From UHGV virus genome UHGV-0052151: a stretch of DNA of 24,638 nt, one strand, 5' to 3'. The DNA comes from a virus. This document shows positions 2,420-24,638 of this stretch, one piece after another. The position numbers and the translations under genes are program-made. The notes under the pieces were generated by a model. It saw only the letters and a list, made by a program, of their open reading frames with translations, did no database searches and had not been told where the DNA came from. Positions within the stretch are counted from its first letter, which is position 1. The number at the start of each line of letters is the position of its first letter.

Positions 2420-2765
2420 TCTCTGCTCCTGTTGATACGGAAAGGGAAACAGGCACACCGTTATTACGCCGCCCGGTCAGCCCCACCACCATTGAACCGT
2501 CAAAATTGCTTTTAATGGTGATGGAATCCAGCGTCAGCCGTGGCTCCCAGCGACTCAGCGCCACATACACTGCCGACATGACCTGCAGGCGTAATGCCGG
2601 ATTTTGTGGCTGGTCTATCAGTGTCGACAGCAGGGAACCATATTCACGACGGGCAATGCGGCTACCCTGCGGTGTCAGTAGAATGTCCCGCACCGACTGA
2701 CGCAGATGGTCAATATCAGTAATGGCTTTACCGCTGGTATTGTTCATCCCGATATAAAGCGTCAT
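2406..2765 (-). CDS. W: Baseplate wedge protein W (gp25-like)
   Basis: 119 aa; ATGA overlap with V stop; position and size match P2 W. Confidence 0.8.
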   Translation of the reverse strand: MTLYIGMNNTSGKAITDIDHLRQSVRDILLTPQGSRIARREYGSLLSTLIDQPQNPALRLQVMSAVYVALSRWEPRLTLDSITIKSNFDGSMVVGLTGRRNNGVPVSLSVSTGAENGSD

Positions 2766-12228: not shown

Positions 12229-12894
12229 TTAAAGATCCGGATCTACAGGCTCATGATATAGATTTACAGGGTAATGAATAACTTCATAATTCAGTTGAGT
12301 AACTGTGTGAACATGCTGGCTATAAAAAACCAATGGATTTTTTTGACAAGGAGTAATCGTTATAGATTTACAGGCATGAATTCTTGGTGCGAATTTATCT
12401 AAATGCGCCTTCCAGTTGCTCATCATTTCATTACATTTTCTATTACGAGTATAGATAATCAATCCACCACTTGCGCTGTCTACGGTCCCTGTACTATATC
12501 GCTCAGTGAGTTGAGCATACCCTTTAAATAAATAACTATATGAAGATGTATGTTTTTTGGCTTCGCCATGCCAAATATAATCCTTTAGTTTTATTGTAAT
12601 ATCACAATGTCCGCGCTGATTATTTTCATGATATGCTTCAATGCCCATATCTTTATTTTTGATATTGGCCAATAAAATTAAAGTAAGCTGATCTTCTGTT
12701 AAATCGAAGTTTAACTTATTTGAATTCTCTTCTATTTCCTTTACAGCAGAATCAAGTTCAATCCTGACAAATTGTTTGAAATTATCGTACGATTGAAGTG
12801 CAAATCTAACACGAGTAATAGAAGCATTAATACGCTGAAGAAAAATATCATTATCAATATCAGCCAAACTCATTGCTGCAGACATTTTTAACAT
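12229..12894 (-). CDS. Hypothetical protein, third gene of AT-rich three-gene operon; weak PD-(D/E)xK-like motif
   Basis: 221 aa; ATG at 12894 shares one base with the upstream stop (TGATG); AT-rich codons; segment GHCDITIKLKDYIWHGEAKK; no family recognised. Confidence 0.6.
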   Translation of the reverse strand: MLKMSAAMSLADIDNDIFLQRINASITRVRFALQSYDNFKQFVRIELDSAVKEIEENSNKLNFDLTEDQLTLILLANIKNKDMGIEAYHENNQRGHCDITIKLKDYIWHGEAKKHTSSYSYLFKGYAQLTERYSTGTVDSASGGLIIYTRNRKCNEMMSNWKAHLDKFAPRIHACKSITITPCQKNPLVFYSQHVHTVTQLNYEVIHYPVNLYHEPVDPDL

Positions 12895-13328
12895 CAGATA
12901 ATATCCTTTGATTTAGATTCATCTAATGTAAAAAAAGGAAATACGAATGACTTATAGTCATACATAAGCTCCCCTGTAAATGGGTTTGCTAAAGATTGAC
13001 TGATTTCCGCCTCAATAACTTCCTCTATTTCAAGTTCTACAGGGTCATGAAAATCATCAACGAACCAATAATTGAGTTTTAAAAAATCAACCTTTGGGCT
13101 ACAAAGAATTTGTATGGCCGGATAGATAACCTGCTCATACGTTTCTGGCTGTAAAACCTTATTATAACCACCAGCTATATTAAATAAATCCTTATAACTT
13201 AAAGCTATATTTGATGATTTTTTAGCCCTTGCCTCGATTTCATCGTACAAATAGCAAGCTAACGCCCCAATTTCAGGGCGTTCTGCACACATTTCTTTGA
13301 TGATCTTGGGCATATCACCATCCTTCAT
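12894..13328 (-). CDS. Hypothetical acidic protein, second gene of the operon
   Basis: Track ORF 12894-13340 (TTG); ATG at 13328 with GGAG 6 nt upstream preferred; acidic C-terminal half (EIEEVIEAEISQS...); no family recognised. Confidence 0.55.
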   Translation of the reverse strand: MKDGDMPKIIKEMCAERPEIGALACYLYDEIEARAKKSSNIALSYKDLFNIAGGYNKVLQPETYEQVIYPAIQILCSPKVDFLKLNYWFVDDFHDPVELEIEEVIEAEISQSLANPFTGELMYDYKSFVFPFFTLDESKSKDII

Positions 13329-13340
13329 TGCTGACTCCAA

Positions 13341-14447
13341 TTATAATATCAGCTTTGTGAGGGTTTCGAAATCATCTTTGGATATACATTTACTTAATAT
13401 AGCATAGTTAACAGGAGAGCAACTACTCCCTCCTAGATGCCTGCGGAGTGTTCCCGGAATGATAAGCTCTACGTTATCCGCTAATTGCAGTTTTGGATTA
13501 TTTCTATCAACTCTAATTCCAATACGATACAAACCAATACTGCCTACTGCTTTGATGCCTTCCTTATTAAACAAATCATCACGTAAGTCTTTAGTGGCCA
13601 CATTTTTCTTTTCTTTATGCGTAGTCCCCTCATTCGTCAAAAATGACAAATCAAAGACTTTATAGCTTAATTTTGAATAAGGCAATGAATTTTGTTTGAA
13701 AATTGGCTCAATTAACGGATAAAAATCTTTTTCCGATGATTTAAATTCATAACCGACATGATTATACAATTCACGAATAATGTTACTCTTTGCAAAAGTA
13801 ACATTATCACCAATAATATTACCATTAGTATCTACCAAAACATGAATTTTATTAGTAACAGAGTCTAATATACAGACATCAAAACATTGTCGCTTTTCTT
13901 TTCGCTTTGCAATAATTTCATCAAACTGCTTGTATTGCGCAAGTGCTGACGGGGGAATTTTTTCTCTTACAACTAATTCTCTGACAGATGAAAAAACAAG
14001 TATTGACTGGGTGTTTTGAATAGAATAATTAACAAGTTCAGGTTGATTTTTTACAGCATTTTGCAATTGGACATCATCAAGGATCGAATCAACCAATAAT
14101 GATGGTTGATTCATCAAATTCCATTGAAAACTAAATCTGTCATTTAGTGTTTTAATTACACTATTATCTACAGTCAAACTAAATATTGCTTTTTCACCAT
14201 AAACGACCTGACCAAAAATTAGGTCATTTACGTTTGCCATAATGCCATCAAACTTTTGCCTATCTTTACTTTTAAGATCAATGAGGCTTTCTAGTATTTT
14301 TTCGTTTGTTGCTTCACGCCCCCTACCTGTTGGCAGCCCTAAAGACGCAATAATTGGCCTTGCAACGTTCCATGTGAAACGTTCAGTTAAGGTCAAGATC
14401 GACTTTAACTCAGACTTAGAAAGCACTACTGGGACACTACCTGTCAT
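13341..14447 (-). CDS. Hypothetical protein, first gene of the operon
   Basis: Track ORF to 14456 (GTG); ATG at 14447 preceded by AGGTG; about 368 aa; no P-loop or other motif recognised. Confidence 0.6.
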   Translation of the reverse strand: MTGSVPVVLSKSELKSILTLTERFTWNVARPIIASLGLPTGRGREATNEKILESLIDLKSKDRQKFDGIMANVNDLIFGQVVYGEKAIFSLTVDNSVIKTLNDRFSFQWNLMNQPSLLVDSILDDVQLQNAVKNQPELVNYSIQNTQSILVFSSVRELVVREKIPPSALAQYKQFDEIIAKRKEKRQCFDVCILDSVTNKIHVLVDTNGNIIGDNVTFAKSNIIRELYNHVGYEFKSSEKDFYPLIEPIFKQNSLPYSKLSYKVFDLSFLTNEGTTHKEKKNVATKDLRDDLFNKEGIKAVGSIGLYRIGIRVDRNNPKLQLADNVELIIPGTLRRHLGGSSCSPVNYAILSKCISKDDFETLTKLIL

Positions 14448-14597
14448 AACTTGCACCTAGTCATCCAAAAAGCAATAAGAATTTGCTCTTGTCTTAATTT
14501 ATCCTTCGATACCTAACAAATTACCTCAATGTTGAAAAAATTTGCAAGCCATTTGCTTCTAAAAAGCGACCTTACTCAGAGTGTTACAAAACTAAGC

Positions 14598-14633
14598 GAG
14601 CGCGCGCTCGTATCCCCGCCACGCCTGCCCGCT
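14598..14633. other. Candidate cos (cohesive-end) site
   Basis: Minus strand reads GGCGTGGCGGGGATACGAG; its first 13 nt match the P2/186 19-nt cohesive end as I recall it (GGCG[A/T]GGCGGGGAAAGCA[C/T]). It sits in a GC-rich island between Q and A, where cos is expected; a 14-bp perfect palindrome CGAGCGCGCGCTCG (14598-14611) is adjacent. Confidence 0.4.
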
Positions 14634-14947
14634 TTATGTAGTGGTTTTCATGCACCTGCATGTTCTACGTAAAAGCCCGCTAGTTCTGGCGAGCCTTAGC
14701 AAAAACGATCCTTAAACGATCATGCGATTTCATGCAGCATAGTCATGCACTGTCTAAGAGAAGTGAAAGTCCGTATCTGAATGACCACTTGAAAAACGAA
14801 ACATACAGACTTACAAAGATGAAGCTCTACTGTGAGCGAGGAACATACATAGTTGCTCTGTAATAGCCAAATTTTAAGCAGGAAATCTCTTTTTTATGAC
14901 AAAACTATAAAGAAAAACAGACCGTTTCATCGCTCGATGAAAATATA

Positions 14948-16525
14948 CTACAATACTTTTCTCTCGATGGTATTTTTAATAGTCAACATATCTTTAGGAA
15001 TACTTTTTTTCCCCTCTATACGTATGGTAAACACAAAAAGAATAACGGCTGATCTCACAATTTTCATGAGTTGTAAGAGCTGTTTCTCAAACTTTTCTTT
15101 CTCAATAAACCTCACCTCATCAAAAAACCCATAAGAATTATATAAATCAACTAACATGTCTTTCTCGTGAATAACTAACAGTTTATGTTCTAAATCATTC
15201 CTCCATTCTTTAAAAAAAGCAAGCTCACCATTTTTATCATTCAAATCCATAGCAATACTAAACAAACCCAGCAATCCTTTATTATTTATTTTGTTTATTT
15301 TAAGCTTTCTTTTTTCATCACTAATCCGCCAGAAGTTATGAAAGTATATATGTCCTCTATCTGGTTTTAAATCAAATAATTGACACAGAGCAACTGCTAT
15401 TTTATCCAAGATACCAAAGCAAGCTCTAAATGCAACCCTTAACTTCTCAACATTTTCATACAATATTTCTCCATTATACAATTCAGAATAACATACCTCC
15501 GAATCCTCATCAAAAAACTCACTATCAACCTTATATTCAAAAAACATTTTTCGTGCTAAGGAATACTCAGCTTTAAGTCTATTTAACACCATTTCCATTG
15601 GCACTATAAAATCACCAAACACACCTTCCTCGGTGGTAGCAATAGTTATATTATCTTTAGATGACGCATAACAATTGCAATATAGCGAATGATCAGACAA
15701 CATTAGATTATTATCTATACAAAACCTCTGGTAGTTTGATAAAGTATCATACTCCTCCTGCGTGAGCCTTTCATCTGTACTTATATCCTCTATGCCATAT
15801 ACACATGATTCACTCAATATACTTTCGTTGTACTTTATTTTTCTTTGAAGAGCAACCTTCCATGAAGGAAAACATTTCCCTGACTTTATTGCACACTCAT
15901 AACCTCGAATAACTTCTTTAATCATTTTATATGTATATGTTGTAGATAATTCATTAAGCAATTCTAATGCCTCAGATCTGTTTACCCACGCCTGAGGAAT
16001 TGAGTTATCAATAGATATTGCTTGTTCATAATAATCCATTGATTCAGATATACGATATTGTTTTTTTAATACATTAGCTAGATTAACTATTAAATCAGGG
16101 GGCACCCATCCATCTTCTTGTGAAAGTTTAAACGCTTTCCAGTAATTATTTTTTACATCATTCAGCTTAATGAAACTATCAATATCTGCATTGTCATTAG
16201 GATTAAAATCAAGAACTGCGCTCATTCCATTTGCCAAGTTATAGTAATATAAGGATTCTTTCATTATAGTCAGAAATTCATTTTTATTGTTTATAAAGAT
16301 ATTTAAGCCTTCCTCTGCTATATTTTTTACATTACTAAAACTTCCGATATCAATAAGATTTCCGGCCAAATTAGATAATATAATTATTCTATTTTCTTTG
16401 ATTGTATTTATCTCATCGATACCGTTAAGAATATCCTTTACATTTTTATAGGCAGAATCAAATGAACCTGCATTAATAAGATCATCTACGAACCCCATTT
16501 TTGAAACAACATAGTTGATATCCAT
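14948..16525 (-). CDS. Hypothetical 525-aa protein; helical/TPR-like N-terminal region, C-terminal Rx4H (HEPN-like) motif
   Basis: ATG at 16525 with AGAGGA 6 nt upstream; strongly AT-rich; occupies the old/tin position of P2; no Walker A, no reverse-transcriptase YxDD motif; WRNDLEHK near residue 442. Confidence 0.6.
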   Translation of the reverse strand: MDINYVVSKMGFVDDLINAGSFDSAYKNVKDILNGIDEINTIKENRIIILSNLAGNLIDIGSFSNVKNIAEEGLNIFINNKNEFLTIMKESLYYYNLANGMSAVLDFNPNDNADIDSFIKLNDVKNNYWKAFKLSQEDGWVPPDLIVNLANVLKKQYRISESMDYYEQAISIDNSIPQAWVNRSEALELLNELSTTYTYKMIKEVIRGYECAIKSGKCFPSWKVALQRKIKYNESILSESCVYGIEDISTDERLTQEEYDTLSNYQRFCIDNNLMLSDHSLYCNCYASSKDNITIATTEEGVFGDFIVPMEMVLNRLKAEYSLARKMFFEYKVDSEFFDEDSEVCYSELYNGEILYENVEKLRVAFRACFGILDKIAVALCQLFDLKPDRGHIYFHNFWRISDEKRKLKINKINNKGLLGLFSIAMDLNDKNGELAFFKEWRNDLEHKLLVIHEKDMLVDLYNSYGFFDEVRFIEKEKFEKQLLQLMKIVRSAVILFVFTIRIEGKKSIPKDMLTIKNTIERKVL

Positions 16526-17398: not shown

Positions 17399-19813
17399 TT
17401 AATACAGGTTCCGCCACTTATCATCTTCCTGCAAACGCTGGTTCCGATAGAAAATACGCAGGCCTGCTCCTGACGGAATGCTGCCGCCGCGAAGGAGTAA
17501 ATCGACCTCTTTCTCGCTGCCATCAAATCCTCTGGACTTCAGTTCATAGACGAGCTGCTGTCGCTGATGATCTGTAATTCGCTGTTTGTAGTCTCTACGC
17601 CGTTTCGGTTTCACCAGGCGTAACCTTGCAGCCAGTTCCCGACGCTCTTTTTTGTTCATACTGTGCAGGTAATCGTGCAATTCCTTGTCATCCATGCGGG
17701 TGATATCCGTTCTGGTATCCCCATCAGCTGATTTGTCTTTCCCTTGTTGGTACAAATTTTCAGCAAGGGGACAGTTATTGCCACGAGTCCAAGGGGCGCA
17801 AGCGCCATGGTCGGCTGCCGCCTCCTGAACGTCAACGGCCTTACGAACCATTTTCCACTTCACGGCATGAGTGCAGATCTTGCCCTCTGCAATAGGTGAC
17901 CAGATGCCATAAATACGAATGCCGTGATCGCCATAGGCGGTCGGCTCTTCGTTGATTTCATAAGCAGTTCTGATGAGGTGATATTTACGGGGAACCAGTA
18001 CGCCGCCCTGCTTCATGATGTAGGTGGCAAAACAACCAGCATCAGCAGCAGCCAGGATTGCATCAAGCCGCGGGTTATCCAGTACCGGCGCACCTGCTTT
18101 TTTGTCACCCTGTTGCCTTGCCGCCTGACCAGCCAGCAATCGCAGTTCACGGTAAGCCTGACGCCCCGGAATGCCAAAGAAGCGGAATTGCTGAACACGA
18201 TGCAGAGACGCCCAGGCATTCACGTATTCAGCGTTATCACGCAGGGATTTACCCGTTTCCTTGCTGATCTCGCCAGCCAGACCACGCCCGTCAATGTTCT
18301 TACTGATATATTTCGCGATGTAGCTTGTCGGCGTTCCTTTGCGCGGGTTAATCAACTCAGACTTAAAGCGTGGTCCCGTGTTATTCCCCAGCTCCTCGCG
18401 GTCTTCACGAATGGCAAACTTACGCAACAAAGCAGTAATGGCGCGGCGATCTTTTTTGCGCATAAAACACAACAGGTGCCAGTGAACTGTACCGTCATGA
18501 TGCGGCTCAGCCACCCGCACGCCATACCAGCGCAATCCGGCTTTGTGCATCGCCTTACGAAATGCAGCAAACATGCCAACCAGATAATCACTGCTTTGTC
18601 TTACCGTCGCATTTGTCCAGGTCGGGTTGGGCCTGCCGTTATTTAGCGTGGAATGGAAACGTGACGGACAGGTGATGGTGTAGAAAACGGCGCAGTCACC
18701 GCGCATTTCCGCGATAAGCTCCAGGCCTTTAACACAGGCCATCATCTCATTGCGGCGATGCGCAGGGTTGCTGCTGCTGGCGTTTACCACATCCTCCATG
18801 TCCAGCGTGTCGCCGTCTTCGTTCACCAGTTCATGAGAACGGAAAAACTCCAGCGACTTACGGCGCTGCTCACGTTTATGCATCACGGCTTCATAGCTGA
18901 CATAGGGAGATGCTTTTTTGCTGACCAGACAGACAGCACGCAACTGCTCTTCCCGCCATTCGCAACGCATCTTCCATAATTTCCGATACCACCAGTCGGC
19001 GCACAGCATACGCGCCAGCGAACCCGGAATGAGTTCATAGGGCACAGGTTTGCGGCGGTTTCTTTTCCGGCGGAGTTGCTCAAACGCAGGCGGTATGACA
19101 TCCAGTCGCAGGGTTTCTGCTGCCACCTTTTCCCATGTCTTGCGGATTTCTTCCGGCTTAACATCATCGGAGGCGTACAAATCACCACAAGCGGCATCAA
19201 GGCACATACTCATATGCGCAGCTACCAGGGTGGACAGGCGTTTCACCTGATCCTGACTCATTTCAGGCAGGATCAGCAGGCCGTCCAGCCCTTCATGGCT
19301 TGCCATAAAGCGAAAAGACGCAGATAGCTGACTGTCGCGTACATGCTCCAGTCGTTCCAGACATGGCTTAATCGTCTCACGCAAATAGCGGGAATAAGCC
19401 TTTGGCCTGCTCAGGCTGCTGAAGTATTCAATACGTTGCATCAGCGGCTTGCTGATATGGGAAGGCTGGGCGTTGACGTCCGCCAGAATGACCATATCCG
19501 GATTAAAACGCTGCTGCTCATGCGCCAGCTTTGCCCGACTAATGAGCTTATCCTGTTCCATTTCGCGCTGGACAGGATCACGGGATTCATTAAAGAAATA
19601 ACGCTCCCAGACCTGATCACTCAGCGCCTCACGGCGCAGCTGTTCCTGCTCGTTATCGGCAGCGTACAGAGTGATCAGGTTTGAAAGCGCAGAAACCGGC
19701 GCAACTTCCGCCGGGTCCAGATAAGGGTTAATGGCCTTTTTCGGGCTGTTCCATGAGAATGCTGCGGCGACCTCGTTAAAGCCGCTGCAGTTGTTCATAT
19801 CAGCATGGCTCAT
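17399..19813 (-). CDS. A: Rolling-circle replication initiator (P2 gpA-like)
   Basis: 804 aa; HUH motif (VHWHLL) and paired active-site tyrosines (YIAKYISK); ATG at 19813 overlaps the dam stop (ATGA). Confidence 0.9.
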
Positions 19814-21704: not shown

Positions 21705-22214
21705 TCACAGCAAACCGAATGACGCACCGAGGCCAGTTACAGTATCAACTGCACTTGCCATCGCAGGATTAGCCTGTAAACGGGCCTGCAATGAAACAGC
21801 CGCCAGCGCCATCAGTCGTGTTACAGAGTTAATGCTGCTGATGGCATCACGACGACCGGCACAGGTTTTTACATCGCCAGATACCGCACCTGCAGCAACA
21901 CGCCCGATCTCTGCGGTTGCACTCATGACGTAATGTGGCAGTTTCTCTTTTGCCACCTCATTAATCGGTACACATGGCAGACAATGAATCTGTGCCAGAA
22001 AACCATCTACCAGCGTTGAATCTTCAGTCAGATCGGTAAGCAGCCAGATTTCTGGTGCGGTTAATAAATGAGGCTGAGCTGGGTTCAGCTTGTTCCGCAG
22101 AATCTGCACATTCATGCCTGCACGTTCTGCCAGTTGCACCAGATTGTGGCGCAGTGCAAATGCACGACAGGCTTCATCAAAATGTGGATGTTTGGAAACT
22201 TGGTAATCAAACAT
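21705..22214 (-). CDS. cII: CII-like lysogeny-establishment regulator (186 type)
   Basis: From ATG at 22214 the product starts [24 protein letters not shown] and ends SFGLL, closely resembling 186 CII as I recall it; 169 aa. Confidence 0.8.
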
Positions 22215-22246
22215 GGTCAATGCCTCTGATGTATTTCAGAATCGAA

Positions 22247-22468
22247 CTAATTAAGGTTTAGATTGCATTCTGAAAGCGCATCAACGGTCATGGCTGCTAT
22301 GTTGATCATCACTTTTTCGCGTTTTTTATCTTTGCGCAAACGGTGACGGATAAGGCGTCCATCAGCCAACATGTCATTGATGGTATCGATGGACAGTCCT
22401 GTCAGCTCGCTATAGCGTTCAATAGTCACATGAGGCGTGGTAAGAGTGATTGAAATGTTAGGTCTCAT
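22247..22468 (-). CDS. apl: Apl-like excisionase/repressor of the lysogenic promoter
   Basis: 73 aa, first gene of the minus-strand early operon, divergent from cI, upstream of cII (186 apl position). Confidence 0.6.
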
Positions 22469-22593
22469 GATGCAACATTCCTCGTTTAATGATGATTAAT
22501 CAGGACGAATACGGATCGTTTGTATTTTGTGAACACCATAAACATACGATCGCACGATGAAATCGTCAAGATAAAAGTTCACTTGGAGTGACC
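22469..22593. promoter_or_regulatory. Lysis-lysogeny switch region (face-to-face pR/pL, CI operators expected)
   Basis: 125-bp region between divergent apl and cI; direct repeats ATACGGATCG (22509-22518) and ATACGATCG (22544-22552), each with a GATC, and inverted repeat ACGAT-GAA-ATCGT (22554-22566). Confidence 0.4.
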
Positions 22594-23163
22594 ATGAATT
22601 TGGAGAAAGGCGGACGAGGCGCTATAGAGCGCATGGTAGAAGCTTATGGATTCAAAACTCGACAGGCGTTGTGCGATCATTTAGGAATCTCTAAAAGTAC
22701 ACTCGCTACACGCTACATGCGTGACTCATTCCCAGCAGAATGGGTAATCCAGTGCGCCCTTGAAACGGGCACCTCGCTTAATTGGCTCACAACTGGACAT
22801 GGTTCAAAGCAAACTTCAGGTAATACAAATACGATGGAAGTTGCTAAATATGTATTATCTGATGGTGCCTTGCGTGAAGACGGTTTTTATATTTTTGATA
22901 AGGGATTTCTACCCTCTACGTTTAAAAAACCTTTTGTCATCACAGATAACAATTCTGAATTTATTTGTGATAAAGAATTTGATGATATACGTGATGGTAA
23001 ATGGGTAATAAGTATTGATGGCGAAATAACAATCCGCGACATTACTCGTTTACCCGGTGGAAGAATCTTCGTTGAAGGTGGAAACAGAGCCTTCGAGTGC
23101 AAGATAGAAGATGTTGAAATAATTGGAAAAATTATAAGTTTAACAATTAAGTACGTTAGGTAA
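22594..23163 (+). CDS. cI: CI immunity repressor (186 type)
   Basis: ATG at 22594 with GGAG upstream; 189 aa; segments VEAYGF, CALETGTSLNWLTTGHG and ITIRDITRLPGGRIFVEGG resemble 186 CI as I recall it. Confidence 0.85.
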   Translation: MNLEKGGRGAIERMVEAYGFKTRQALCDHLGISKSTLATRYMRDSFPAEWVIQCALETGTSLNWLTTGHGSKQTSGNTNTMEVAKYVLSDGALREDGFYIFDKGFLPSTFKKPFVITDNNSEFICDKEFDDIRDGKWVISIDGEITIRDITRLPGGRIFVEGGNRAFECKIEDVEIIGKIISLTIKYVR

Positions 23164-23178
23164 TACCGGGAGGAAACT

Positions 23179-23370
23179 ATGCTTGGTAAGGTATTTTTTG
23201 TGGTTTTATCATGCTCTTTGTTATTAAACCCACTAACTACCTATGCTAAAAATTATCCTTGTTCTGGGAAAAAGGGAGGTGTCTCTCACTGTACCTCCGA
23301 TGGAAAGTTCGTTTGCAATGATGGAACTATTAGTAAATCAAAAAAAATCTGTACTAAAAACTCGCGATAA
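23179..23370 (+). CDS. Small secreted cysteine-rich, lysine-rich protein (moron)
   Basis: 63 aa; GGGAGG RBS; hydrophobic signal-like N-terminus [23 protein letters not shown], then 5 Cys in about 40 residues; AT-rich codons; between cI and int on the lysogenic transcript. Confidence 0.5.
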
Positions 23371-23556
23371 TTTTTGCTTTTATATCTGCGCCTAATATAA
23401 CAATGAGCCGCAGGCTAACCGCAAAAGTCACATACTCACATAGCAAAAAATAGCCAACTTCATTATGGCTTCAGTGAGATGTATGGTCGCAAGATTTCAT
23501 ACATTGACACTGGTTATACATACAGTAAAAATGCTCTCTATTGGAGGGCATTTTTT

Positions 23557-24588
23557 ATGGCAGTACGAAAACTCACCACAGGAAAATGGCTTTGCGAATG
23601 TTACCCCGCCGGACGTAGTGGGCGTCGTGTGCGTAAACAATTCGCCACCAAAGGCGAAGCACTGGCTTTTGAGCGTCACACGATGGAAGAAACCGAAGCA
23701 AAGCCCTGGCTGGGCGAATCAGTAGATCGTCGAACCCTGAAAGACGTGGTTGAGCTATGGTTCAAACTACATGGTAAATCTCTGACTGCTGGGCAGCATG
23801 TCTATGACAAATTGCTGCTGATGGTTGACGCTCTGGGCAATCCCCTTGCAACCGATCTCACATCTAAAATGTTTGCCCATTATCGAGATAAACGACTGAC
23901 AGGTGAGATCTACTTCAGCGAGAAATGGAAGAAAGGGGCCAGCCCGGTCACCATTAACCTGGAGCAAAGCTATCTAAGTAGTGTTTTTAGCGAACTATCC
24001 CGCCTGGGCGAATGGTCGTATCCAAACCCACTGGAGAACATGCGAAAATTCACCATCGCAGAAAAAGAGATGGCATGGCTTACCCATGAGCAGATTGTTG
24101 AACTGCTGGATGATTGCAAACGTCAGGACCCAATTCTGGCACTGGTAGTCAAGATATGCTTAAGCACAGGCGCACGCTGGCGAGAAGCAATAAACCTTAC
24201 CCGATCACAGGTGACCAAATACCGAATTACCTTTGTAAGAACGAAGGGGAAGAAAAACAGAAGCATCCCTATCAGTAAAGAGCTTTATGAAGAGATCATG
24301 GCGCTTGATGGGTTCAATTTCTTCACAGACTGCTATTTTCAATTTTTATCCGTGATGGAAAAAACGTCTATCGTGCTCCCTCGCGGTCAACTTACACACG
24401 TTCTGCGTCATACGTTTGCGGCGCATTTCATGATGTCGGGTGGAAACATCCTTGCTTTGCAAAAAATCCTCGGACATCACGACATAAAAATGACTATGCG
24501 TTATGCTCATCTATCACCTGATCACTTAGAGACAGCTCTTCGTTTCAATCCACTAGCAACTTTGGATGTTACTAAATCAGATTCTTAA
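23557..24588 (+). CDS. int: Tyrosine integrase
   Basis: Track ORF from 23479; ATG at 23557 with GGAGGG RBS gives MAVRKLTTGKWLCECYPAG...; C-terminal HVLRHTFAAHF (HxxR) and MRYAHLS (catalytic Tyr) motifs; 343 aa. Confidence 0.9.
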   Translation: MAVRKLTTGKWLCECYPAGRSGRRVRKQFATKGEALAFERHTMEETEAKPWLGESVDRRTLKDVVELWFKLHGKSLTAGQHVYDKLLLMVDALGNPLATDLTSKMFAHYRDKRLTGEIYFSEKWKKGASPVTINLEQSYLSSVFSELSRLGEWSYPNPLENMRKFTIAEKEMAWLTHEQIVELLDDCKRQDPILALVVKICLSTGARWREAINLTRSQVTKYRITFVRTKGKKNRSIPISKELYEEIMALDGFNFFTDCYFQFLSVMEKTSIVLPRGQLTHVLRHTFAAHFMMSGGNILALQKILGHHDIKMTMRYAHLSPDHLETALRFNPLATLDVTKSDS

Positions 24589-24638
24589 AGGTTCAAGCAT
24601 GGTTAAGTTTTTGTTTCAATTCCCAATATTCGACTTCT

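What the first reader, a model, noticed from the sequence alone, without database searches (positions are those of the whole stretch)
23179..23370. Small secreted cysteine-rich peptide on the lysogenic transcript between cI and int
The 63-aa ORF has a strong RBS, a signal-peptide-like N-terminus, 5 cysteines in the mature part and many lysines, with AT-rich codons unlike the neighbouring cI and int. Its position means it would be expressed in the lysogen, as expected for a lysogenic-conversion or superinfection-exclusion factor.
Basis: partly seen in the sequence, partly recalled or inferred. Interest (0 to 1): 0.5.

Follow-up and report, generated by a model that had tools for sequence, protein, structure and literature searches.

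The report
Prophage-borne YdcA-family periplasmic mini-protein
The 63-codon gene between the repressor and integrase genes of this E. coli P2/186-like prophage is real and encodes an exported, disulfide-stapled, very basic 40-residue protein of the widespread but uncharacterised YdcA family; it is already annotated, so it is ordinary as an object, but its conserved place behind phage repressors and its domain's fusions to secreted nucleases give a testable idea of what the family does.

Summary
The ORF at 23179-23370 (+) is real. RefSeq already annotates the identical protein (WP_001321204.1) as "YdcA family protein". It passes the NCBIfam cut-off and is under strong purifying selection (pN/pS about 0.05). 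About 12% of complete E. coli genomes carry it, always with this cI type, BL21(DE3) included.

It miscounted the cysteines: four are in the mature part and one is in the signal peptide. The "AT-rich unlike cI" contrast fails, because the 3' half of cI is equally AT-rich.

The repressor-then-YdcA order recurs in P2-like prophages of Yersinia, Haemophilus (unannotated in HP2) and beta-proteobacteria.

The only solved relative is Dis2 of the Legionella Dot/Icm secretion system. The domain is also fused to three unrelated secreted-nuclease folds and sits in T6SS clusters.

My best reading is inferred, not shown. It is a lysogen-expressed periplasmic binding module for a polyanion, probably DNA, that interferes with incoming DNA. 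Superinfection exclusion or lysogenic conversion remains untested.

It is a member of a known family. Interest is moderate.

The parts
22594..23163 (+). cI repressor gene (186-type: Phage_CI_repr plus Phage_CI_C domains); first gene of the lysogenic operon
   Evidence: Pfam E-values are 2.8e-33 and 2e-28. PGAP annotates it as 'phage repressor protein CI'. The C-terminal half has 33.6% GC.
23168..23173 (+). Shine-Dalgarno sequence GGGAGG, 5 nt upstream of the ORF's ATG
   Evidence: Read directly from the sequence. It is conserved in E. coli alleles that are 93-100% identical.
23179..23247 (+). Codons 1-23: Sec-type signal peptide ([23 protein letters not shown]), predicted signal peptidase I cleavage after A23
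   Evidence: It has a hydrophobic core and a T-Y-A site. A23 is invariant or nearly invariant while the rest of the N-terminus varies freely across the family. AlphaFold predicts a helix over residues 3-15. No valid lipobox is present.
23248..23370 (+). Codons 24-63 plus stop: mature 40-residue YdcA domain ([40 protein letters not shown]), 4 Cys
   Evidence: NF007463 scores 116 bits against a cut-off of 93. It matches phrog_6000 and PF27300 'YdcA'. In the mature part pS is 0.35 against pN 0.011. Dis2 (7muc_AN) is hit at E 3.1e-5 by sequence, and is the top Foldseek match with probability 0.98.
23370..23428 (+). Long imperfect hairpin immediately after the stop codon (no U-run); part of a structured intergenic region
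   Evidence: The RNA fold of 23360-23575 gives -57 kcal/mol, z = -4.29, and 0 of 200 shuffles fold as well.
23504..23532 (+). Promoter-like site TTGACA-17-AAAAAT upstream of int (function unproven)
   Evidence: The consensus scan matches 10 of 12 positions. In the Yersinia prophages a 'TTGACT ... TATACAGTAAAT' stretch upstream of int resembles it by eye; the alignment does not place it in the same columns.
23527..23555 (+). 13-bp hairpin (AAAAAUGCUCUCU / GGAGGGCAUUUUU) that contains the int Shine-Dalgarno (GGAGGG, 23543-23548) and ends 1 nt before the int ATG; terminator-like and likely to occlude translation
   Evidence: It appears in both the MFE and centroid structures. The last ~60 nt of the spacer are conserved in prophages that lack the ORF (H109-H112). 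That segment therefore belongs to the int module.
23557..24588 (+). int, P2-type tyrosine integrase
   Evidence: Pfam Int_N E 2.7e-32 and Phage_integrase E 4.1e-22. PGAP annotates it as 'phage integrase'.

Best explanation
The ORF encodes a prophage-borne member of the YdcA family (Pfam PF27300, NCBIfam NF007463).

Shown or strongly supported:
- It is a genuine protein-coding gene under strong purifying selection.
- It has a cleavable Sec signal peptide.
- Its 40-residue mature domain carries four invariant cysteines and six to eight lysines.
- It sits 15 nt behind cI with its own strong ribosome-binding site, so any transcript that makes repressor also carries it.
- A structured spacer follows, ending in a hairpin that buries the int ribosome-binding site.

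Inferred:
- The protein is exported to the periplasm and stapled by two disulfides. Its solved relative Dis2 is disulfide-bonded in this way.
- It is made continuously in the lysogen together with CI.

Inferred mechanism (my best guess, about 1 in 3): the YdcA domain is a small extracytoplasmic binding module for a polyanion, most likely DNA. The prophage copy coats or traps DNA that crosses the periplasm, such as a superinfecting phage genome or transforming or conjugative DNA. It would thus act as a cheap lysogen-expressed entry-exclusion factor.

My confidence in the identity and export part is above 0.85. My confidence in the DNA-binding and exclusion mechanism is about 0.3.
For: Identity:
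- NF007463 scores 116.1 bits against a cut-off of 93.
- PGAP names the identical protein 'YdcA family protein'.
- It is 57% identical to chromosomal E. coli YdcA.

Coding:
- pS 0.26 against pN 0.014 overall, and 0.35 against 0.011 in the mature part.
- The signal peptide varies while the mature domain is nearly invariant from Escherichia to Neisseria and Brucella.

Export:
- 252 of 264 relatives have a hydrophobic region plus a small-x-small site directly upstream of the domain.
- E. coli YdcA is described as having a signal sequence and being predicted periplasmic (bioRxiv 10.1101/2024.02.12.579971).
- Dis2 is seen disulfide-bonded under the outer membrane (PMC8486379).

Lysogenic co-expression:
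- The gap after cI is 15 nt, with no terminator-like site on the + strand there.
- In HP2 the homologue overlaps cI by ATGA, downstream of the annotated pL promoter.
- The order repressor-then-YdcA, same strand, is seen in Yersinia, Iodobacter, Comamonas, Deefgea and Hydrogenophilales P2-like prophages.
- Phage repressors are the commonest immediate neighbours across 56 other loci.
- The cI allele occurs in 648 genomes and the ORF in 654 genomes.

Polyanion or DNA binding:
- The domain is fused behind a signal peptide to three unrelated nuclease folds. These are SNase (P0119), Endonuclease_NS (P0168, P0203, P0208, P0250) and PLD-type (P0179).
- It occurs as tandem arrays of two or three copies.
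- It occurs together with the PBCV basic adaptor domain.
- The core domain has a median net charge of +4.

Precedent:
- Mobile elements place periplasmic DNases in the path of incoming DNA: IdeA, SxnA, Dns (PMC12378983).
- The cI-int gap hosts defence genes: PDC-S20 KAP NTPase, the Vibrio K139-like hotspot (PMC9122126) and K139 glo (PMC4870250).
Against: - No experiment or dataset examined here shows transcription, translation, export, DNA binding or exclusion.
- The only solved relative, Dis2, sits on the periphery of the T4SS outer-membrane cap. It faces the membrane and contacts the lipoproteins DotC, DotD and DotK, not a DNA or substrate channel.
- A subfamily is embedded in T6SS gene clusters. 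This fits an envelope-scaffold role at least as well.
- The known phenotypes of chromosomal ydcA concern organic-acid and acid stress (PMC7642389).
- The fusion census covers only about 20 long proteins out of 1857 clusters.
- There is no PADLOC match.
- IS insertions truncate the gene in some prophages.
- In Moraxella and Acinetobacter phages the gene lies in the tail-gene cluster, not next to a repressor.
Confidence: 0.4

Rival explanations
1. Outer-membrane-proximal adaptor. The YdcA domain is a protein- or lipid-binding plug that docks on the periplasmic face of the outer membrane or on its lipoprotein complexes, as Dis2 does on DotC, DotD and DotK. The prophage copy would modify an envelope machine, for example by masking a receptor, secretin or porin used by other phages, or by modulating T6SS or T4SS. 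In the nuclease fusions the domain would be a tether, not a DNA binder.
For: - Dis2 is the only solved homologue: profile E 8.1e-5, single sequence E 3.1e-5, Foldseek probability 0.98.
- Dis2 sits on the cap surface facing the outer membrane.
- A 133-residue YdcA-domain protein follows tssJ-tssE in the EAEC 042 Sci-1 T6SS cluster and in 16 Enterobacterales loci.
- One fusion to a VasL domain was found.
Against: - Deleting dis2 leaves the T4SS structure and function almost unchanged.
- No T4SS or T6SS genes lie in the window.
- Tethering does not explain why three different nuclease folds, and no other enzyme class, appeared among the fusions seen.
- The extreme conservation of the lysines across hosts with different envelope proteins argues for a generic ligand.
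Confidence: 0.22
2. Host-fitness cargo unrelated to phage exclusion. The gene would be an extra dose of a general envelope-stress or acid-tolerance factor equivalent to chromosomal YdcA. This is lysogenic conversion in the broad sense.
For: - It is 57% identical to chromosomal YdcA.
- Deleting ydcA in E. coli W makes it sensitive to 300 mM 3-hydroxypropionate. The same paper cites induction at pH 5 under YdcI (PMC7642389).
- ydcA transcript levels rise in persister-related transcriptomes.
Against: - E. coli already has ydcA, so a second copy adds little.
- The persistent linkage to repressor genes of P2-like phages in four bacterial orders, and to morons of other phages, suggests a benefit tied to the phage lifestyle.
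- The phenotype evidence comes from a single study and is indirect.
Confidence: 0.2
3. Periplasmic metal-binding (Cu or Zn) peptide that uses the four cysteines and the conserved histidine as ligands.
For: - Four invariant Cys and a nearly invariant His37.
- In six Atlantibacter and Citrobacter loci the gene lies next to DUF2946. By my reading of the sequences, it also lies next to a PepSY-type membrane protein. From my own knowledge these genes are often associated with copper uptake.
Against: - In Dis2 the equivalent cysteines form disulfides with clear density.
- There are no CxxC pairs.
- The periplasm is oxidising.
- A metal role does not explain the nuclease fusions.
Confidence: 0.06
4. 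Protease inhibitor or secreted antimicrobial peptide: a small cationic disulfide-rich knot.
For: Weak, non-significant resemblance to plant Pin-II proteinase inhibitors (E 0.18-2). The protein is cationic and disulfide-rich.
Against: - The E-values are not significant.
- There is no immunity or export partner.
- A conserved chromosomal copy exists in every E. coli.
- Nuclease fusions and tandem arrays do not fit this role.
Confidence: 0.04
5. Not a functional gene: a chance ORF or decaying remnant in an AT-rich spacer.
For: The ORF is short and AT-rich. IS insertions truncate it in at least two genomes.
Against: - pN/pS is about 0.05.
- It scores above the curated family cut-off.
- The family has 1857 clusters.
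- It is present in about 640 E. coli genomes together with this cI.
Confidence: 0.02

Closest known systems
E. coli K-12 YdcA (b1419; 57 aa; NCBIfam PRK10040 group, Pfam PF27300 'YdcA')
   Same: It has the same architecture of signal peptide plus 4-Cys basic domain. It is 57% identical overall and carries the same PCSG-KGG-SHC...FVCNDG-IS-SKK-C motif.
   Different: YdcA is chromosomal, lying between cybB/rydC and trg, not prophage-borne. It matches a different NCBIfam equivalog: NF007462 scores only 68 bits against a cut-off of 118 for the window protein. Its function is also unknown.
Legionella pneumophila Dis2 (Lpg0823), outer-membrane-cap component of the Dot/Icm T4SS (PDB 7MUC/7MUD)
   Same: It is the only solved structure with significant sequence similarity (E 3.1e-5 to 8.1e-5, both lobes) and it is the top Foldseek match. 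It is exported, disulfide-stapled and located in the periplasm.
   Different: Dis2 has two lobes with five disulfides and is built into a T4SS. The window protein has a single domain with four Cys and no T4SS nearby. The literature calls Dis2 Legionella-specific, and the two Dis2 papers read here do not mention any relation to YdcA.
Vibrio phage K139 Glo and the cI-int cargo hotspot of P2-related phages
   Same: It has the same genomic slot (between cI and int of a P2-family phage) and its product is periplasmic. PMC4870250 calls glo the K139 family immunity gene and links carriage of the prophage to superinfection exclusion. The hotspot is described in PMC9122126.
   Different: No sequence relationship was detected: tblastn of the ORF against 50,697 phage records gave no Vibrio hit. 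The exclusion phenotype of Glo was not re-examined here and is not shown for YdcA proteins.
Periplasmic DNases carried by mobile elements (IdeA of ICE VchInd5, SxnA of SXT, Dns of C. jejuni CJIE1)
   Same: They are exported, element-encoded proteins that act on incoming DNA in the periplasm (PMC12378983). YdcA domains are fused to the same kinds of secreted endonucleases.
   Different: The window protein has no catalytic domain. Any effect would come from binding alone.

Membership tests
YdcA family (NCBIfam NF007463 / Pfam PF27300) | Score above the curated family cut-off | tested here: met
   NF007463 scores 116.1 bits against a cut-off of 93, covering residues 5-63 and the whole profile. 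PF27300 is precomputed for the cluster representative. PGAP gives the product name 'YdcA family protein'.
YdcA family (NCBIfam NF007463 / Pfam PF27300) | Four conserved cysteines in the motif PCSGxKGG[VI]xxC...F[VI]CxDG[ST]xSxSKxxC | tested here: met
   C28, C38, C46 and C58 are invariant or nearly invariant in the 27- and 39-sequence alignments. The motif is found in 264 of 292 collected relatives.
YdcA family (NCBIfam NF007463 / Pfam PF27300) | N-terminal cleavable Sec signal peptide, periplasmic location | tested here: inconclusive
   Sequence heuristics and family-wide conservation agree. Neither SignalP nor an experiment was available.
Dis2 (Lpg0823)-type T4SS cap component | Sequence and fold similarity to a Dis2 lobe | tested here: met
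Dis2 (Lpg0823)-type T4SS cap component | Two-lobed tandem domain with five disulfides, encoded in a genome with a Dot/Icm T4SS | tested here: not met
   The window protein has a single domain with four Cys. The window is a P2/186-like prophage with no T4SS genes.
Prophage superinfection-exclusion or lysogenic-conversion gene | Encoded on the lysogenic (repressor) transcript | tested here: inconclusive
   The position (15 nt after cI, same strand, no terminator-like site) and synteny in HP2 and other P2-like prophages argue for it. No transcript data were examined.
Prophage superinfection-exclusion or lysogenic-conversion gene | Confers exclusion or a host phenotype when expressed | not testable with these tools
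   This requires plaque, conjugation, transformation and stress assays.
Known anti-phage defence systems (PADLOC-DB 2.0) | Match to a defence-protein model | tested here: not met
   No family matched at E up to 0.01. By contrast, the KAP NTPase inserted next to the gene in other prophages matches PDC-S20 at 2.4e-171.
Exclusion lipoproteins (Llp/Cor type) | Lipobox with Cys at +1 of the mature protein | tested here: not met
   The only early Cys (C12) lies in the hydrophobic core after K4, is too close to the N-terminus and is not conserved in the family. The conserved cleavage context is A followed by K or R.
Classical phage moron (own promoter and terminator) | Autonomous promoter upstream and terminator downstream | tested here: not met
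   No promoter-like site lies between cI and the ATG, and the gap is only 15 nt. No canonical terminator follows directly after the stop codon. The first terminator-like hairpin lies 157 nt downstream at the int start. The gene is operonic with cI.

The most novel reading that the evidence does not exclude
The YdcA domain (PF27300) is a previously unrecognised extracytoplasmic DNA-binding mini-domain. Temperate phages of many proteobacteria, notably naturally transformable Haemophilus, Moraxella, Acinetobacter and Neisseria, would express a free copy from the lysogenic operon. It would bind DNA in the periplasm and so block superinfecting phage genomes and/or transforming DNA that could delete the prophage. 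This would be a catalytic-domain-free counterpart of the periplasmic DNases carried by mobile elements. It would also give a first functional handle on E. coli YdcA, on the T6SS-linked paralogue and on Legionella Dis2.
Probability: 0.2. Interest if true: 0.7.

Novelty: new member of a known kind. Interest (0 to 1): 0.4.

Why it matters
YdcA proteins form a large family: 1857 clusters at 90% identity, found across alpha-, beta- and gamma-proteobacteria. No function is known for the family.

This prophage copy shows three things:
- The family is recurrent lysogeny-module cargo of P2-like phages.
- It is homologous to a structurally solved but functionally opaque T4SS component, Dis2, which the literature treats as Legionella-specific.
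- Its domain has been joined repeatedly to secreted nucleases.

Together these turn "hypothetical periplasmic protein" into a concrete hypothesis that is cheap to test. The identical gene sits in BL21(DE3).

If the hypothesis is wrong, the finding is simply an annotated small cargo gene of unknown role.

Tried and rejected
- The Pfam-A copy at hand has no PF27300 model and gave only a meaningless weak hit.
- phmmer of the tandem-domain relative P0081 against the PDB found nothing.
- An Rfam scan of 22200-24638 found no known RNA.
- PADLOC gave no match for the ORF.
- Literature searches for YdcA, PF27300, DUF3761 and PRK10040 gave no functional study. They turned up one deletion phenotype and some transcriptome lists. 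Many 'ydcA' hits concern unrelated genes of the same name in Bacillus, the gonococcal island and plasmids.
- I recalled from memory a resemblance to DUF3761. It could not be tested, beyond one UniRef name on a Serratia homologue, and I do not rely on it.
- The UniRef name 'Conjugal transfer protein' for the cluster has no support in the loci examined.
- I rejected the lipoprotein reading and the chance-ORF reading (see the membership test and the rivals).
- I first assumed that the whole window equals the prophage of strain SHP24. Only 22400-24638 was compared, and the upstream gene layout differs, so I claim nothing about the completeness of the prophage.

Full report
**What is there.** The window ends in the lysogeny module of an E. 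coli P2/186-like prophage.

- Positions 22400-24638 are 100% identical to the chromosomes of several E. coli strains. There the prophage lies next to rcdA.
- The gene order is apl/cox-like and cII on the minus strand, then cI (22594-23163), the ORF in question (23179-23370) and int (23557-24588) on the plus strand.
It has 63 codons, an ATG start, and a GGGAGG Shine-Dalgarno 5 nt upstream. It starts 15 nt after the cI stop codon.

**Is it real?** Yes.

- RefSeq's PGAP pipeline already annotates the identical protein (WP_001321204.1) as 'YdcA family protein'.
- It scores 116.1 bits against NCBIfam NF007463 (cut-off 93) and matches phrog_6000. Its cluster carries the precomputed Pfam family PF27300, named 'YdcA'.
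- Between E. coli alleles that differ at 5-7% of nucleotides, nearly all changes are synonymous. pS is 0.26 against pN 0.014 overall, and 0.35 against 0.011 in the mature part (alignment).
- Across the family the N-terminal 20-25 residues vary freely, while the rest is almost invariant from Escherichia to Neisseria, Comamonas, Brucella and Rhizobium.

**Corrections to the observation.**

- The protein has five cysteines, but only four (C28, C38, C46, C58) are in the mature part. The fifth (C12) sits in the hydrophobic core of the signal peptide and is not conserved.
- The AT-richness (34.9% GC) contrasts with int (46.5%) and with the window (49.2%). It does not contrast with the C-terminal half of cI (33.6%).
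- The signal peptide is supported by K4, a hydrophobic core, P18 and T-Y-A before K24.
- The alanine at -1 is invariant or nearly invariant. 252 of 264 relatives show the same hydrophobic stretch plus small-x-small site immediately upstream of the domain.
- No lipobox is present.

**Anatomy of the operon.**

- There is no room for a promoter, and no terminator-like site, between cI and the ORF.
- The 186-nt spacer to int is unusually structured: z = -4.29, and 0 of 200 shuffles fold as well.
- The spacer's last element is a 13-bp hairpin (23527-23555). Its 3' arm contains the int Shine-Dalgarno, and it ends one base before the int ATG.
- The last ~60 nt of the spacer are conserved in prophages that lack the ORF. 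That hairpin therefore belongs to the int module, while the ORF travels with cI.
- Counts agree with this. The cI allele is found in 648 of 5426 complete E. coli genomes and the ORF in 654. These include BL21(DE3), E. coli B and ATCC 8739, which carry the identical protein.
- Inference: whenever repressor is made, this mRNA is present and the ORF has the better ribosome-binding site. int appears to be attenuated.

**Conserved position.**

- In Haemophilus phage HP2 an unannotated 60-codon homologue begins at the cI stop codon (ATGA). It lies downstream of the annotated pL promoter and upstream of a second secreted protein and int.
- The order repressor-then-YdcA on the same strand recurs in Yersinia prophages. 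In P2-like prophages of Iodobacter, Comamonas, Deefgea and Hydrogenophilales it recurs too, sometimes with one or two genes in between.
- Across 56 further loci from a one-genome-per-species collection, phage repressors are the commonest immediate neighbours.
- The position is not universal. In Moraxella and Acinetobacter siphophages the gene lies in the tail cluster before the tape-measure gene. In Neisseria flavescens it lies next to a Mu Gam-like gene.
- In related 186-like phages the cI-int gap holds other cargo. Examples are a KAP NTPase that matches the PADLOC candidate PDC-S20 at E 2.4e-171 and lies right after the YdcA gene, a 558-residue ATPase, and a 349-residue protein.
- A cI-int defence hotspot has been described for Vibrio K139-like P2 phages (PMC9122126). 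A minor integrase-primase hotspot has been described for P2-like prophages (PMC13586616). K139 glo encodes a periplasmic protein in that slot (PMC4870250).

**What the domain may do.** The family comprises 1857 clusters at 90% identity, and 452 representatives at 50% identity. No function is known.

- E. coli YdcA is described only as a 57-residue protein with a signal sequence. Its deletion sensitises E. coli W to 3-hydroxypropionate.
- *Dis2.* Both the family profile (E 8.1e-5) and the window protein alone (E 3.1e-5) hit one PDB sequence. That sequence is Legionella Dis2 (Lpg0823), and the match covers both of its lobes.
  - The AlphaFold model has pLDDT about 90 over residues 31-50. Its top Foldseek hit is the same chain, at probability 0.98.
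  - Dis2 is a two-lobed, five-disulfide protein on the outer-membrane side of the Dot/Icm T4SS cap. It contacts the lipoproteins DotC, DotD and DotK.
  - Dis2 is dispensable and is described as Legionella-specific.
- *T6SS.* A 133-residue paralogue follows tssJ-tssE at the end of the EAEC 042 Sci-1 T6SS cluster and in 16 Enterobacterales loci.
- *Nuclease fusions.* Among about 20 longer family members scanned, six carry the domain behind a signal peptide and in front of a nuclease. Three unrelated nuclease folds are involved: SNase, Endonuclease_NS (four proteins) and PLD-type.
  - Other long members are tandem arrays of two or three domains, or carry a PBCV basic adaptor domain. One is fused to a VasL domain.
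  - No other enzyme class was seen.
- The core domain is basic, with a median net charge of +4.

**Interpretation.**

- Repeated fusion to unrelated secreted nucleases, tandem arrays and conserved lysines are what one expects of a small module that binds a polymeric polyanion, most simply DNA.
- Mobile elements are known to put periplasmic DNases in the path of incoming DNA.
- I therefore commit, at about one chance in three, to the following reading. The prophage copy is a lysogen-expressed periplasmic DNA-binding mini-protein that interferes with incoming DNA.
- The main rival is that the domain is an outer-membrane-proximal adaptor. The Dis2 structure and the T6SS linkage suggest this, and the nuclease fusions would then be tethers.
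- A third reading is a general envelope-stress role like that hinted at for chromosomal ydcA.
- None of these is shown. IS insertions truncate the ORF in at least two otherwise near-identical prophages. It is therefore accessory.

**Verdict.**

- The reading 'secreted peptide on the lysogenic transcript' is supported by anatomy and synteny. The reading 'exclusion or conversion factor' is plausible by position but untested.
- The object is an annotated member of a known family of unknown function, so its novelty is low.
- Interest is moderate because the comparative evidence links prophage, T4SS, T6SS and nuclease contexts of one mini-domain, and suggests simple decisive experiments.

Noticed in passing
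L001 2920-3102 (= Haemophilus phage HP2 NC_003315.1, about 2486-2668, minus strand of the record): An unannotated 60-codon YdcA homologue ([60 protein letters not shown]) starts at the cI stop codon (ATGA). It precedes orf1(S), which also begins with a signal-peptide-like sequence, and then int. The S2 record matches at the same coordinates as HP2 and also carries no annotation there.
   Followed up: yes
PDB 7MUC/7MUD chain AN (Legionella Dis2, Lpg0823), compared with window 23248-23367: Recent papers describe Dis2 as Legionella-specific with no structural relatives. It is significantly similar in sequence, in both lobes, to the widespread YdcA domain, so it looks like a tandem YdcA-domain protein.
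   Followed up: partly
Proteins P0119, P0168, P0179, P0203, P0208, P0250; loci L095 1446-1937 and L096 813-1799: These carry a signal peptide plus a YdcA domain fused to SNase, Endonuclease_NS or PLD-type nuclease domains. Other family members are arrays of two or three YdcA domains (P0079-P0082) or carry a PBCV basic adaptor domain (P0156).
   Followed up: partly
L090 9290-9691 (E. coli 042, NC_017626.1 4879863-4880264): A 133-residue protein with an N-terminal YdcA domain directly follows tssJ-tssE at the end of the Sci-1 T6SS cluster. It is followed by a GIY-YIG nuclease and a 3'-5' exonuclease gene, then VasL remnants. The same arrangement is seen in 16 Enterobacterales loci.
   Followed up: partly
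window 23504-23555: A promoter-like TTGACA-17-AAAAAT site runs into a 13-bp hairpin that buries the int Shine-Dalgarno and ends 1 nt before the int ATG. This suggests attenuation or translational control of int, and perhaps a separate int promoter. In the Yersinia prophages a 'TTGACT ... TATACAGTAAAT' stretch upstream of int resembles the promoter-like motif by eye; the alignment does not place it in the same columns.
   Followed up: partly
L088 1697-3028 and L089 3133-4464 (E. coli FDAARGOS_1251 and IH5): In some sister prophages a KAP-family P-loop NTPase is inserted between the YdcA gene and int. It matches the PADLOC candidate defence system PDC-S20 at E 2.4e-171. Other 186-like phages hold different cargo in the same gap (L093 3791-5467; L094 3567-4616).
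   Followed up: partly
window 12229-16525, minus strand: The cargo block between the replication gene A (17399-19813) and the portal gene contains a 525-residue protein with a C-terminal LA2681-like HEPN domain (E 1.8e-38). Three further ORFs (371, 148 and 221 residues) have no family match. None matches PADLOC. This is the known defence hotspot of P2-like phages.
   Followed up: partly
L098 980-2262 and L099 980-2123: The IS elements ISKpn26 and ISApl1 are inserted in the 3' end of the YdcA-like ORF in two E. coli genomes, removing the last conserved cysteine. The AT-rich ORF may be an IS target.
   Followed up: no
window 24600-24638: A further ORF starts 12 nt after int and runs off the window. 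In matching genomes it is a 240-residue hypothetical protein between int and the prophage end next to rcdA. This is the integrase-att slot reported as a minor cargo site in P2-like prophages.
   Followed up: no
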